From sequence record PP988008.1: DNA of 51,468 nt; one strand, 5' to 3'. Shown here piece after piece: positions 21,595-35,064 of this stretch; position 1 is the first letter of the stretch; every line of letters starts with the position of its first letter. The notes under the pieces were generated by a model, which saw nothing but the letters and a program-made list of their open reading frames with translations, made no database searches and was not told the origin of the DNA. The position numbers and the translations under genes are program-made. This DNA comes from Escherichia phage phiE31-2.

Positions 21595-21606
21595 GGAGAA
21601 TTTTTG

Positions 21607-22722
21607 ATGAAGCAAATCAAAATCACAGATGAACAATTTATCAATGAGCGCAAGCAGGGAAAGACATATAAGCAGATCGCTAATGAGTATGGTATGAACG
21701 TTCGCAGCATTGAGCGACGCGCGGCACGATTAGCAAAGCAAGGTAAAGTTACAACCATCGGATCACCTGGTTTTGGTGTTACTGGAGAATCAAAGCTAAT
21801 TGATAAAGATGGCAATGTGGTTATGACATGGATTAAGACAAGTAAGGACCGCGAACAGTTAGAAGCATTAATGCAGGCCGCTATGGATGCATTTAGCGAA
21901 GAAGTTCCTCGACTTGATCCACAGCCAGAATCACAAAAGGATTATAGCGAGACGTTATCACTGTATCCGATCTTTGACATGCACTTGGGAGCAATGGCGC
22001 ATAAGCATGAATGCGGCGAGAATTGGGATACAGCAACAGCAGAGCGCGTAATGAATAATTTCATTGATTATTCCATCCAGTGCGCGCCGGATAGTGAAAA
22101 GGCTGTTTTACTGATTGGTGGTGACATGCTTCACAGCGACGGACTGGAGGCGGTGACACCTGCAAGCGGTCACGTATTGGATCAAGATAGTCGATATGCA
22201 AAACTTGTTTATGTTGCCATCCGGTCAGTGCGTCGAGCAATTACAAAGCTGTTATCAAAACACAAAAACGTCGAGATTCAGATCATTGAAGGCAACCACG
22301 ACCAAAGCGGCATGATCTGGTTGCGCGCAGCAATGGCGGCAGCATATGAGAATGAGCCACGAGTGCATGTTGATGTTTCTCCGCGAGTAGTTCATCACAC
22401 ACAATATGGCAAAACATTCCTGGCATACCATCACGGGCACACTATCCGCAAGCCTGAAACATTGCTCATGATGTGCGCGGCAGACTGGCGCGAAGACTTC
22501 GGCAATTCAAAAATGATGTATGCTCACGTAGGGCACTGGCATCATCAAACAGTAACTGAAACAAGCCTGGGCATTGTTGAAGTGCATAGCACTATGGCGG
22601 CAAAAGATGCATATGCGGCGCGCGGTGGGTGGCGCTCTCGTCGCCGTGCGGCTGTTATTGTTTACGATAAAGAATACGGAGAAGTCGGGCGATTTATGCA
22701 TTATCCTGAAATGGCTGGTTGA
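21607..22722 (+). CDS. HTH domain fused to calcineurin-like metallophosphoesterase
   Basis: ATG after AAGGAG; N-terminal HTH-like YKQIANEYGMNVRSIERRA; phosphoesterase motifs DMH, GGDMLH, GNHD, GHWHH in order. Confidence 0.65.
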   Translation: MKQIKITDEQFINERKQGKTYKQIANEYGMNVRSIERRAARLAKQGKVTTIGSPGFGVTGESKLIDKDGNVVMTWIKTSKDREQLEALMQAAMDAFSEEVPRLDPQPESQKDYSETLSLYPIFDMHLGAMAHKHECGENWDTATAERVMNNFIDYSIQCAPDSEKAVLLIGGDMLHSDGLEAVTPASGHVLDQDSRYAKLVYVAIRSVRRAITKLLSKHKNVEIQIIEGNHDQSGMIWLRAAMAAAYENEPRVHVDVSPRVVHHTQYGKTFLAYHHGHTIRKPETLLMMCAADWREDFGNSKMMYAHVGHWHHQTVTETSLGIVEVHSTMAAKDAYAARGGWRSRRRAAVIVYDKEYGEVGRFMHYPEMAG

Positions 22723-33415: not shown

Positions 33416-33955
33416 ATGAAAAAATACGAATTTGAACTTTGGGGCAGCAAATACCATTTTTCCACGAGCAAGCCGATTGTTATCGTTGACCTGGACGGAA
33501 CGTTATCAGACGGAACGCATCGCTTGCACCTGCTTCCGACAGAAGATTTGCACCTTACAGAAAGTTGGTCTGAGTTCAATAAGGCGGCTGTTGGCGATTC
33601 GCCGATTAAGAGCACGGTTGCAGTGGTTAACGGTTTGTGGATGTCGGGATTTGCCATTGTTATCCTGACCGGACGTAGCGACGAAGTGATGGCGGATACC
33701 TGCAAGTGGCTTAACGAAAACGGCATCAAGTACGATGCGTTAATCATGCGCCGCAGGGAAGACAACCGCAAAGACACAATCATCAAAGAAGAAGTCTTGC
33801 GCGCTATCGGACTGGAAAACATTGTGTGCGCTTTTGATGATTCGCCGAACGTGGTTAAGCACTTCCGCAGCCTGGGAATCACAACCTATCAGGTAACGGA
33901 ATACGACAAGCCACATTCTCACATCCAATCGCACGGCGTGGAGGAATTGAAATGA
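33416..33955 (+). CDS. HAD-superfamily phosphatase (polynucleotide 3'-phosphatase / 5'-deoxynucleotidase-like)
   Basis: HAD motif I VIVDLDGTL and C-terminal Asp-containing motif CAFDDSPN; ~180 aa. Confidence 0.6.
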   Translation: MKKYEFELWGSKYHFSTSKPIVIVDLDGTLSDGTHRLHLLPTEDLHLTESWSEFNKAAVGDSPIKSTVAVVNGLWMSGFAIVILTGRSDEVMADTCKWLNENGIKYDALIMRRREDNRKDTIIKEEVLRAIGLENIVCAFDDSPNVVKHFRSLGITTYQVTEYDKPHSHIQSHGVEELK

Positions 33956-34113
33956 CCTGGTTACTTTTAATCTTTGTCACAAGTTACAACTCCGCCGCTA
34001 TTGAATCGCAAGAGTTCTACGGAGAATCAAGATGCCAGGAAGCACGAAAACAAGTTGTTCTCCACATGTCAGATAGCGGGAAAGATGTAACAGCGTTATG
34101 CGTTCGTAAGTAG
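33952..34113 (+). CDS. possible small membrane protein
   Basis: 53-aa ORF; ATG overlaps upstream stop (ATGA); hydrophobic N-terminus; stop TAG embedded in conserved motif. Confidence 0.35.
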   Translation: MTWLLLIFVTSYNSAAIESQEFYGESRCQEARKQVVLHMSDSGKDVTALCVRK

Positions 34114-34153
34114 CACTTTTTGCAAAAACACATTATCGGGCTTGCGGTATAGT
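34111..34153 (+). promoter_or_regulatory. conserved-motif promoter-like element (variant)
   Basis: TAGCACTTTTTGCAAAAAC - 18 nt - TATAGT. Confidence 0.5.
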
Positions 34154-34184
34154 AAGCCCATCGACAACAAACGAGGATTAAATC

Positions 34185-34445
34185 ATGGCTAACAAGATCG
34201 AGTTTTTTAAAGCGGTAGACAAGATTGACGGCGCGCCAAGTTTCTTTGCTATCCAGTCAATTGACGGTGAGGATATGGCATACAACGTTATCAGAGAAAA
34301 GAATCACAGCGTAAACGAGCTTATCATGCTTGTGGTTAAGTTCGGTAAATGTGGGTGGCTGGATTCTGGAGTAGAGCCGCGCCGCCGCGACATGGTAGAT
34401 CCTGTTCTGCTTTACACGCTAGTAATTGAGAAAGATAATAGTTGA
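34185..34445 (+). CDS. hypothetical protein
   Basis: 86 aa with GAGGA RBS downstream of promoter-like motif. Confidence 0.5.
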   Translation: MANKIEFFKAVDKIDGAPSFFAIQSIDGEDMAYNVIREKNHSVNELIMLVVKFGKCGWLDSGVEPRRRDMVDPVLLYTLVIEKDNS

Positions 34446-34473
34446 TTCTTACAGCAAATAAGGAGACGAAGAA

Positions 34474-35064
34474 ATGAAACGAGACATTATCATCCTTAAC
34501 GGACCGCCAGGAGTTGGCAAAGATACGCTTGCCGCATACTTAACGGGCCATCGTTACGCAGCGGTTAAAGCGTCGTTTAAACAGCCTATGTTCGATATTG
34601 CATTCTCCATGCTTGGCGTTTACAGATATGACGAGTTCATTGATCTGTATAACGACCGCGAGCAGAAAGAAAAGCCTCAAGCAATCTTGCAAGGTAAGTC
34701 TCCGCGACAATTCATGATCTGGATTAGTGAAGAAGTCATGAAGCCAGCTTTTGGCGAGCAATATTTTGGAAATCGCATGGTTGAGCAAGTACACGAGATG
34801 TACAGGGATTTAGCTGTTGTAATTAGTGATGGCGGATTCCCTGAAGAAATAAAGCCTCTCGTTAAGGCAGGCCATGAAGTTCACATTTGCCGACTGCATC
34901 GCGAAGGTTTCACGTTTGATGGAGATTCGAGAAACTATATTGACCTGAGCGGATACCATCACCGAGTCAAGCATTACGACTTCACAATGACTGATGGCGA
35001 TCCAGAAAAGACTGTTGACGAGATCATCAAAACGGTCCAGTGGAAACACATTAAGATCAAATAG
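34474..35064 (+). CDS. P-loop nucleotide kinase (T4 gp1-like dNMP kinase)
   Basis: Walker A LNGPPGVGKDT near N-terminus; ~196 aa; AAGGAGA RBS. Confidence 0.65.
   Translation: MKRDIIILNGPPGVGKDTLAAYLTGHRYAAVKASFKQPMFDIAFSMLGVYRYDEFIDLYNDREQKEKPQAILQGKSPRQFMIWISEEVMKPAFGEQYFGNRMVEQVHEMYRDLAVVISDGGFPEEIKPLVKAGHEVHICRLHREGFTFDGDSRNYIDLSGYHHRVKHYDFTMTDGDPEKTVDEIIKTVQWKHIKIK

What the first reader, a model, noticed from the sequence alone, without database searches (positions are those of the whole stretch)
33416..35064. Separate HAD-type phosphatase and P-loop nucleotide kinase genes in the early region
A HAD-motif phosphatase (33416..33955) and a T4-gp1-like kinase (34474..35064) lie two genes apart, each with its own promoter-like motif. 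Together they resemble a split polynucleotide kinase/phosphatase or a nucleotide-pool remodelling pair, which can support nucleic-acid repair after host nuclease attack or favour phage DNA synthesis.
Basis: partly seen in the sequence, partly recalled or inferred. Interest (0 to 1): 0.45.

Follow-up and report, generated by a model that had tools for sequence, protein, structure and literature searches.

The report
Linked phosphatase and dNMP kinase genes
A T1-like coliphage carries a PNKP-type phosphatase gene and a T4-gp1-type nucleotide kinase gene that are already annotated in its relatives and almost always travel together, most likely to recycle DNA breakdown products into building blocks for phage DNA, not to repair broken RNA or DNA ends.

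Summary
Both genes are real, intact and at the stated coordinates. The window is a T1-like phage (Drexlerviridae, Hanrivervirus; the kinase is 99.5% identical to that of phage JakobBernoulli/Bas07).

- **Phosphatase, 33416-33955.** This is a 179-aa stand-alone PNKP-type HAD phosphatase. It scores 79.6 bits against Pfam HAD_PNKP, and every T4 Pnkp phosphatase catalytic residue is conserved. It has no kinase domain, so its usual database name, "polynucleotide kinase", is a misnomer.
- **No repair partners.** The window has no Pnkp-type kinase, ligase or tRNA gene, so a split T4-type end-healing enzyme is not supported.
- **Linkage.** In 103 distinct related pairs the order is always phosphatase then kinase on one strand, and 64 pairs are adjacent. 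Three natural phosphatase-kinase fusion proteins exist, and an SbcD/Mre11-like exonuclease often lies next to the pair.

The best reading is a nucleotide-salvage or pool-remodelling module. The phosphatase's substrate is unresolved. The claim that each gene has its own promoter is not supported. The genes are already annotated, so interest is low to moderate.

The parts
33416..33955 (+). Stand-alone PNKP-type HAD phosphatase, 179 aa. It has no kinase domain. Relatives are annotated 'polynucleotide kinase' or 'kinase-phosphatase'.
   Evidence: - Pfam PF25109 HAD_PNKP 3.3e-22; phrog_415 1.4e-66.
- A profile search of the PDB hits only Pnkp1 4xrp (5e-14) and T4 Pnkp 1ltq/5uj0.
- D25, D27, R36, T85, R87, D120, K124, D141 and D142 are invariant. 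They align with T4 D165, D167, R176, S211, R213, D254, K258, D277 and D278.
33952..34113 (+). Intervening small ORF, 53 aa. Its ATG overlaps the HAD stop codon (ATGA).
   Evidence: ORF list; phrog_5579 3.7e-08, function unknown; junction read directly.
34185..34445 (+). Intervening small ORF, 86 aa, function unknown.
   Evidence: ORF list; phrog_25318 5.5e-06. The genes in this position differ among close relatives.
34411..34439 (+). Sigma-70-like motif TTTACA-17-GATAAT, 35 nt upstream of the kinase ATG. Probably not significant.
   Evidence: It matches 10 of 12 consensus positions, but the region has fewer such sites than its shuffles. It is absent from the close relatives examined, which carry a different upstream gene.
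34474..35064 (+). T4 gp1 / T5 Dnk-type deoxynucleoside monophosphate kinase, 196 aa, with a strong AAGGAG ribosome-binding site upstream.
   Evidence: - phrog_139 2.1e-51. T4 gp1 (1.8e-65) and T5 Dnk (1.4e-51) fall in the same PHROG.
- hhalign: T5 Dnk 95% probability, T4 gp1 75%.
- Invariant P-loop G15-K16-D17-T18, the 'GKDT' of gp1 and Dnk.
21604..22722 (+). SbcD/Mre11-like 'DNA repair exonuclease', 372 aa. It is not adjacent here. In Kagunavirus, Webervirus and the fusion-bearing phages it lies directly beside the HAD-kinase pair.
   Evidence: phrog_704 1.7e-151. Neighbourhoods in relatives. The KanT1 paper also notes this arrangement (PMC13164509).

Best explanation
The two genes encode (i) a stand-alone PNKP-type HAD phosphomonoesterase and (ii) a T4 gp1 / T5 Dnk-type dNMP kinase. 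Together they form one conserved functional module of T1-like and related phages.

**Proposed mechanism.** The phage has no de novo dNTP genes and lives on host DNA breakdown.
1. The kinase converts 5'-dNMPs released by nucleases into dNDPs. Host Ndk then makes dNTPs.
2. The phosphatase handles phosphomonoester products that the kinase and exonucleases cannot use. The favoured substrates are 3'-phosphates on DNA fragments or nucleotides, as for the T4 Pnkp phosphatase domain. This would unblock fragment ends for exonucleolytic digestion, for example by the SbcD/Mre11-like exonuclease that sits beside the pair in many relatives.

**Shown here:** the family identities, the intact active-site residues, the synteny and the fusions.

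**Inferred:** the substrates and the salvage pipeline.

It is not a split T4-type Pnkp, and it is not part of a phage-encoded RNA repair pathway.
For: **Identity.**

**Catalytic residues.** The HAD residues are invariant and map onto the residues essential in T4 Pnkp. The kinase keeps the GKDT P-loop and the DR..KE and LNGKSP-R motifs shared with gp1 and Dnk.

**Linkage.**
- 80 of 80 HAD-centred loci carry the kinase downstream, and 72 of 80 kinase-centred loci carry the HAD upstream.
- There are 103 distinct pairs, all on one strand in the order HAD then kinase. Of these, 64 are adjacent or overlapping.
- In Raoultella phage RP180 (L047) the HAD stop codon is followed 7 nt later by the kinase ATG.

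**Natural fusions.** P0255 (403 aa), P0391 (413 aa) and P0266 (461 aa) each join a HAD to a gp1-like kinase. The kinase halves of P0255 and P0266 score 6.8e-65 and 2.3e-59 against the kinase profile. P0255 and P0391 were confirmed in DNA from three independent samples; P0266 was seen on one 1.9-kb contig and its DNA was not examined.

**Exonuclease neighbour.** A phrog_704 exonuclease lies next to the pair or the fusion.

**Precedents and context.**
- T5 Dmp and T5 Dnk fall in the same two PHROGs.
- T1 and TLS degrade the host chromosome and reuse its nucleotides, and TLS Gp09 and Gp14 are this same pair (PMC11447400).
- In SP6/K1-5-like podophages the same kinase sits between a metallophosphoesterase and a DNA ligase. 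From my own knowledge, T7 gene 1.7 kinase occupies a comparable position.
- No RNR, thymidylate synthase or ligase is annotated in the close relative pSf-1.
Against: - No biochemistry exists for either protein in any T1-like phage.
- The kinase does not reach Pfam's DNMK model (no hit at E <= 0.1). HMMER profiles do not link it to 1dek. Its gp1 relationship therefore rests on the PHROG, hhalign and the predicted fold.
- The source of 3'-phosphate ends in an infected cell is unknown. From my own knowledge, the common E. coli and phage nucleases leave 3'-OH and 5'-P ends.
- A phosphatase fused to a kinase is also the architecture of genuine end-healing enzymes, so the linkage evidence does not by itself separate salvage from repair.
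- The loci used for the synteny counts are largely related phages, so the counts are not independent events.
Confidence: 0.6

Rival explanations
1. Non-orthologous split PNKP. The gp1-like kinase phosphorylates 5'-OH DNA or RNA ends and the HAD removes 3'-phosphates. Together they heal nuclease-cut nucleic acid for sealing by host enzymes, as a repair or counter-defence function.
For: - The HAD is a bona fide PNKP-type domain. It is 33-38% identical to the phosphatase domains of genuine AAA_33+HAD_PNKP proteins and shares their HR..H..W..F..D.PI segment.
- The same domain is found either fused to a PNK-type kinase or fused or linked to the gp1-like kinase. This looks like a swap of kinase partner.
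- A 'DNA repair exonuclease' is a frequent neighbour.
Against: - The kinase resembles T4 Pnkp only at the P-loop (27 columns).
- Its best structural match is T4 gp1, and T4 Pnkp is not in the top 60.
- It is in phrog_139, not in phrog_505 or phrog_2071 where the T4 Pnkp kinase falls.
- The window has no ligase and no tRNA genes.
- From my own knowledge, host RtcB needs the 3'-phosphate that the HAD would remove.
Confidence: 0.15
2. The HAD is a T5 Dmp-like 5'-deoxynucleotidase. The pair sets the balance of the dNMP pool, destroying some dNMPs and phosphorylating others. It might also alter nucleotide signals that host defences read.
For: - T5 Dmp matches phrog_415 over its full length (3.6e-57), the same PHROG as the window HAD.
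- T5 Dmp shares all the catalytic residues in the alignment.
- T5 also encodes a phrog_139 kinase.
- T5 Dmp remodels dNTP pools and is a site of escape mutations against the Clover defence system (PMC12265719).
Against: - T5 Dmp has no Pfam HAD_PNKP hit, whereas the window protein scores 79.6 bits.
- hhalign of the HAD profile against Dmp gives only 23% probability, and BLASTP matches only motif I. T4 Pnkp gives 96%.
- Dmp is not among the 50 best viral fold matches.
- A general 5'-dNMP phosphatase co-transcribed with, or fused to, a dNMP kinase would run a futile cycle. In T5 the two genes are separated in position and in time of expression.
Confidence: 0.2
3. The two genes are functionally unrelated early genes that merely lie in the same mosaic gene block.
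For: - In the window they are separated by two unrelated small ORFs.
- The intervening genes vary between relatives.
Against: - The order and strand are invariant in 103 distinct pairs.
- 64 of those pairs are adjacent.
- The pair persists while the genes between and around it are exchanged.
- Two lineages of in-frame fusions exist: P0255/P0391, and P0266 at 37% identity.
Confidence: 0.05

Closest known systems
T4 polynucleotide kinase/phosphatase (PseT, PDB 1ltq/5uj0) and bacterial Pnkp1 (4xrp): C-terminal HAD phosphatase domain
   Different: - There is no N-terminal PNK-type (AAA_33) kinase domain. The protein is the phosphatase domain alone.
- The phage has no RNA ligase partner.
- T4's segment between motifs I and II is about 14-15 residues shorter, although other genuine PNKPs share the longer version.
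T4 gp1 (PDB 1dek) and T5 Dnk deoxynucleoside monophosphate kinases (Pfam DNMK PF21448, phrog_139)
   Same: - Same PHROG.
- They share the GKDT P-loop and the DR(E) and LNGKSP-R motifs.
   Different: - Identity is only 16-25%.
- The window protein is about 45-55 residues shorter, lacking the long insertions of gp1 and Dnk.
- It falls below Pfam DNMK's threshold.
- Its family-specific invariant motifs (DGGF, RLHR, GDSR) have no clear counterpart in the alignment.
T5 Dmp + Dnk (5'-deoxynucleotidase and dNMP kinase)
   Same: This is the same pair of PHROG families (415 + 139) in one phage, and both T5 enzymes are characterised as acting on dNMPs.
   Different: - In T5 the genes are about 21 kb apart and belong to different temporal classes (pre-early and early).
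- T5 discards host nucleotides, whereas T1-type phages reuse them.
- Dmp is very divergent from the window HAD.
TLS Gp09/Gp14, Bas07 0073/0078 and pSf-1 gp42/gp47: the same genes in described T1-like phages
   Same: These are orthologues at 84-99% identity, already annotated as 'polynucleotide kinase' plus 'dNMP kinase', 'ATP-binding protein' or 'P-loop NTPase'.
   Different: Nothing substantive differs. The published name 'polynucleotide kinase' for the HAD protein is not justified by its domain content.

Membership tests
HAD superfamily phosphatase | Motifs I (DxDGT), II (S/T), III (K/R) and IV (DD). | tested here: met
   D25-L-D27-G-T, T85, K124 (with R118/K119) and D141-D142 are present. 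The acidic and basic catalytic residues are invariant in 28 homologues.
PNKP-type phosphatase domain (Pfam PF25109) | Score above Pfam's gathering threshold. | tested here: met
   79.6 bits against a cut-off of 27.6, covering profile positions 3-140 of 143.
PNKP-type phosphatase domain (Pfam PF25109) | Residues essential in T4 Pnkp phosphatase: D165, D167, R176, R213, D254, D278. The list is from my own knowledge of the Shuman laboratory's mutagenesis. | tested here: met
   They align to D25, D27, R36, R87, D120 and D142, all invariant.
PNKP-type phosphatase domain (Pfam PF25109) | 3'-phosphatase activity on nucleotides or polynucleotides. | not testable with these tools
   This needs enzyme assays.
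Bifunctional T4-type Pnkp (5'-kinase/3'-phosphatase) | A PNK-type P-loop kinase domain (AAA_33-like) on the same polypeptide. | tested here: not met
   - The 179-aa protein is filled by the HAD domain alone.
- Genuine PNKPs in the same search are 287-323 aa and carry AAA_33.
- tblastn with seven PNK-type kinase domains finds nothing in the window below E = 0.026.
Phage or bacterial RNA repair (Pnkp + RNA ligase) | A ligase partner, and typically tRNA targets. | tested here: not met
   - No ligase is annotated in the relative pSf-1.
- tblastn with T4 Rnl1, T4 DNA ligase and an SP6-like ligase gives no hit below E = 0.4.
- The window has no tRNA genes.
dNMP kinase of the T4 gp1 / T5 Dnk type | Membership of the same sequence family. 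| tested here: inconclusive
   - For: phrog_139 at 2.1e-51, the same PHROG as gp1 and Dnk. hhalign gives 95% to Dnk and 75% to gp1 over 68-73 columns.
- Against: no Pfam DNMK hit at E <= 0.1, and no HMMER hit to 1dek.
dNMP kinase of the T4 gp1 / T5 Dnk type | The gp1 fold as the closest structure. | tested here: met
dNMP kinase of the T4 gp1 / T5 Dnk type | An unusual P-loop ending in GKDT, with Asp after the Lys. | tested here: met
   G15-K16-D17-T18 is invariant in 37 homologues and shared with gp1 and Dnk. T4 Pnkp has GKST.
dNMP kinase of the T4 gp1 / T5 Dnk type | Phosphorylation of 5'-dNMPs. | not testable with these tools
   This needs enzyme assays.
T5 Dmp-type 5'-deoxynucleotidase | Specific sequence relationship to Dmp. 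| tested here: inconclusive
   - Same PHROG.
- hhalign gives only 23% probability, BLASTP matches only motif I, and Dmp has no Pfam HAD_PNKP hit.

The most novel reading that the evidence does not exclude
The PNKP-type HAD and the gp1-like kinase together form a previously undescribed bifunctional phosphatase-kinase enzyme. It is encoded as two genes in T1-like phages and as one polypeptide in some uncultured phages, with the domain order reversed relative to T4 Pnkp and a different kinase fold family.

It would act on a shared substrate stream. One possibility is converting 3'-phosphorylated DNA breakdown products into 5'-dNDPs. Another is acting as a non-orthologous end-healing enzyme that counters host nucleases.
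Probability: 0.2. Interest if true: 0.55.

Novelty: already known. Interest (0 to 1): 0.3.

Why it matters
These two proteins are the only nucleotide-metabolism enzymes annotated in the close relative pSf-1, in a phage group reported to build its DNA largely from the host chromosome. Three practical points follow.

1. The widespread annotation of the HAD protein as 'polynucleotide kinase' is wrong in its domain content and suggests an RNA-repair role for which the phage has no other parts.
2. The strict linkage and the natural fusions of the HAD with a gp1-like kinase make the pair a defined, testable module. The BASEL phage Bas07 is a ready genetic system for it.
3. Nucleotide-pool enzymes of phages, such as T5 Dmp, are now known to be read by host defences such as Clover. 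The T1-like pair is therefore a candidate determinant of sensitivity to nucleotide-sensing or nucleotide-depleting defences.

Tried and rejected
- **HMMER against solved structures.** Searches with the kinase alone and with a 37-sequence profile gave only P-loop noise. The gp1 relationship appeared only through the PHROG, hhalign and the predicted fold.
- **A cap-insertion argument.** I considered that the ~15-residue segment after motif I (HRLHLLPTEDLHLTESWSEFN), absent from T4 Pnkp and matched in length in T5 Dmp, marks a small-molecule 'cap' and so a nucleotidase. I rejected it. Six genuine AAA_33+HAD_PNKP proteins carry the same segment and the same motif I-II spacing of 55-62 residues.
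- **Promoters.** The consensus scan and a comparison of upstream regions gave no support for independent promoters.
- **N-terminally extended HAD forms.** I suspected that the 236-237-aa forms in the database were N-terminal extensions. They are C-terminal tails or in-frame additions.
- **Literature.** Searches for a stand-alone Pnkp phosphatase in phages, and for dNMP kinase as a defence determinant, found nothing specific. The mention of polynucleotide kinase in the retron Eco2 paper was only a reagent.
- **Phages with the kinase but no HAD.** I looked for a non-homologous phosphatase replacement. SP6-like phages have a metallophosphoesterase upstream. This is suggestive and was not pursued.
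Full report
**What the window is.**
The 2.6 kb around the finding matches T1-like phages of the family Drexlerviridae (Tempevirinae, Hanrivervirus). Identity is 94% to Shigella phage pSf-1 and Escherichia phage JLBYU09. The kinase protein is 99.5% identical to that of the BASEL phage JakobBernoulli/Bas07. The window is about one genome length. It has no tRNA genes. The annotated relative pSf-1 has no ligase, DNA polymerase, ribonucleotide reductase or thymidylate synthase.

**The observation.**
- Both ORFs are present as stated: 33416-33955 (179 aa) and 34474-35064 (196 aa), both on the + strand.
- Exactly two small ORFs of unknown function lie between them.
- The first of these starts with an ATGA overlap on the HAD stop codon.
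- The promoter part does not hold. The HAD ATG lies 11 nt after the upstream stop codon.
- The consensus scan finds fewer promoter-like sites in the region (9) than in shuffles (12.6 +/- 3.5), and none on the + strand before the HAD.
- The one motif before the kinase (34411-34439) lies within the preceding ORF. It is absent from the close relatives examined, which have a different gene there.

**The phosphatase.**
- It passes Pfam's HAD_PNKP model (79.6 bits against a cut-off of 27.6) and phrog_415 (1.4e-66).
- A profile of 28 homologues finds only Pnkp1 (4xrp, 5e-14) and T4 Pnkp (1ltq/5uj0) in the PDB.
- Aligned with T4 Pnkp, the residues D165, D167, R176, S211, R213, D254, K258, D277 and D278 correspond to D25, D27, R36, T85, R87, D120, K124, D141 and D142. 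All are invariant in the family.
- The protein is the phosphatase domain and nothing else. Genuine PNKPs recovered in the same library search are 287-323 aa and carry an N-terminal AAA_33 kinase domain.
- The GenBank and PHROG name 'polynucleotide kinase' is therefore a misnomer.

**The kinase.**
- Pfam and HMMER give only P-loop-level matches.
- It belongs to phrog_139 (2.1e-51), as do T4 gp1 (1.8e-65) and T5 Dnk (1.4e-51).
- hhalign links the family profile to T5 Dnk (95% probability, 68 columns) and to T4 gp1 (75%, 73 columns). These alignments include the GKDT P-loop and the DR(E) and LNGKSP motifs.
- The only similarity to T4 Pnkp is the 27-column P-loop.
- tblastn with PNK-type kinase domains, T4 Rnl1 and two DNA ligases finds nothing credible in the window. 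Only the T4 phosphatase part matches, at 33641-33907 with E 5.6e-8.

**Linkage of the two genes.**
- I fetched up to 80 viral loci around relatives of each gene and scanned them with both profiles.
- All 80 HAD-centred loci have the kinase downstream on the same strand. Of the 80 kinase-centred loci, 72 have the HAD upstream.
- After collapsing duplicates there are 103 distinct pairs, all in the order HAD then kinase. Of these, 64 are adjacent or overlapping, and the rest are separated by 1-4 small, variable ORFs as in the window.
- Adjacent versions occur in Kagunavirus-like phages. In Raoultella phage RP180 the HAD stop codon is followed 7 nt later by the kinase ATG. They also occur in Webervirus. 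In both groups the pair lies directly after a calcineurin-like 'DNA repair exonuclease'. The KanT1 paper reports the same arrangement (PMC13164509).
- These loci are related phages, so the counts are not independent events. The pair nonetheless persists while the genes between and around it are exchanged.

**Natural fusions.**
- A profile search of 1.84 billion representative proteins found 11,174 relatives of the HAD.
- Most of the best 150 are stand-alone proteins of 140-170 aa.
- Eight proteins of 287-323 aa carry the HAD at the C-terminus. Seven of these were scanned against Pfam, and all seven have an N-terminal AAA_33 kinase domain.
- Two are fusions with the HAD at the N-terminus and a gp1-like kinase at the C-terminus: P0255 (403 aa) and P0266 (461 aa). 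Their kinase halves score 6.8e-65 and 2.3e-59 against the kinase profile.
- A third fusion, P0391 (413 aa), is 74% identical to P0255.
- P0255 and P0391 translate correctly from phage contigs of three independent samples. In each case a phrog_704 exonuclease follows them directly.
- P0266 is known from a single 1.9-kb contig, and its DNA was not examined.
- The window's own phrog_704 gene is at 21604-22722, about 11 kb away.
- The same HAD domain therefore partners either a PNK-type kinase (N-terminal) or a gp1-type kinase (C-terminal or downstream).

**Relation to T5.**
- T5 Dmp is the characterised 5'-dNMP phosphatase. It matches phrog_415 over its full length (3.6e-57) and shares the catalytic residues.
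- Dmp is nevertheless far from the window protein. It has no Pfam HAD_PNKP hit, hhalign gives 23% probability, and BLASTP matches only motif I. It is absent from the 50 best viral fold matches.
- T4 Pnkp gives 96% by hhalign.
- I tested whether the longer segment after motif I, shared in length with Dmp, marks a nucleotidase-type cap. It does not, because genuine kinase-fused PNKPs carry the same segment.
- The phosphatase's regiospecificity (3' or 5') cannot be decided here. Sequence proximity favours the PNKP-like 3'-phosphatase.

**Interpretation.**
- T1 and TLS are reported to degrade the host chromosome and reuse its nucleotides. TLS Gp09 and Gp14 are this same pair (PMC11447400).
- The related phage has no annotated de novo dNTP genes. 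The kinase belongs to the gp1/Dnk family. An exonuclease is a recurrent neighbour.
- The best-supported reading is therefore a salvage or pool-remodelling module. The exonuclease yields 5'-dNMPs, the kinase makes dNDPs, and the phosphatase removes blocking or unusable phosphomonoesters.
- The family identities, the intact active sites, the linkage and the fusions are shown here. The substrates and the pipeline are inferred.
- The main rivals are a non-orthologous end-healing enzyme and a Dmp-like 5'-nucleotidase. The first is disfavoured by the kinase's family and by the lack of a ligase. The second is disfavoured by sequence distance and by the futile cycle that co-expression would create.

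**Verdict.**
- They are orthologues of genes already annotated in many T1-like phages and already discussed as a nucleotide-supply pair. As an observation the finding is ordinary.
- This analysis adds three things: the correction of the 'polynucleotide kinase' label, the rejection of the split T4-type PNKP reading, and the evidence from synteny and natural fusions that the two enzymes work together.

Noticed in passing
window 33930-33955; relatives P0121, P0124, P0148, P0236; Bas07 L166:883-1596: The HAD gene has variable C-terminal additions in close relatives. One is a 58-aa tail (237-aa forms, as in Bas07). Another is a Cys4, zinc-ribbon-like tail 'PKIECEGEHCFSVVDGKCLRCGVE' (206-210-aa forms). 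Some proteins carry both (264 aa). In the window the ORF stops at GVEELK, and a separate 53-aa ORF starts by ATGA overlap.
   Followed up: partly
L041, L043, L046 (for example L043:8735-11523): In SP6/K1-5-like podophages (Klebsiella K1-ULIP33, Vectrevirus) the gp1-like kinase has no HAD partner. It sits between a 398-aa metallophosphoesterase (phrog_221) and a 316-aa ATP-dependent DNA ligase. That phosphoesterase-kinase-ligase trio has the same domain set as bacterial Pnkp/Hen1-type repair enzymes.
   Followed up: partly
L163:6001-8500; L164:6001-8517; L165:1470-3986: Uncultured phage contigs of 23-61 kb encode an in-frame HAD_PNKP and gp1-like kinase fusion (403-413 aa, linker about 60 aa). 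A phrog_704 exonuclease follows it immediately. A third, distant fusion (P0266, 461 aa) has a linker of about 100 aa.
   Followed up: yes
P0272 (243 aa; on two contigs, the longest 52 kb): A chimeric ORF joins the first ~95 residues of the HAD (through motif II) directly to residue ~47 onwards of the kinase. It lacks HAD motifs III and IV and the kinase P-loop. It looks like a deletion between two adjacent genes and is probably inactive.
   Followed up: no
window 34138-34159: A hairpin, GGGCTT-gcggtatagt-AAGCCC, lies in the 71-nt gap between the two intervening small ORFs. No T-run follows it. Its role is unknown.
   Followed up: no
phage database hits (for example MG065671.1 Campylobacter phage A120): Twenty to 39 records labelled 'Campylobacter phage', with host given as C. 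jejuni, match this E. coli T1-like region at up to ~93% protein identity. The host labels are probably wrong, or the records are contaminated.
   Followed up: no
T5 locus L160:124-3376: T5 dmp (phrog_415) lies in the same pre-early operon as A1, a predicted metallophosphatase reported to drive host DNA degradation. This parallels the metallophosphoesterase-type exonuclease next to the HAD in T1-like and Kagunavirus-like phages. However, A1 (phrog_1745) and the exonuclease (phrog_704) belong to different PHROGs.
   Followed up: partly
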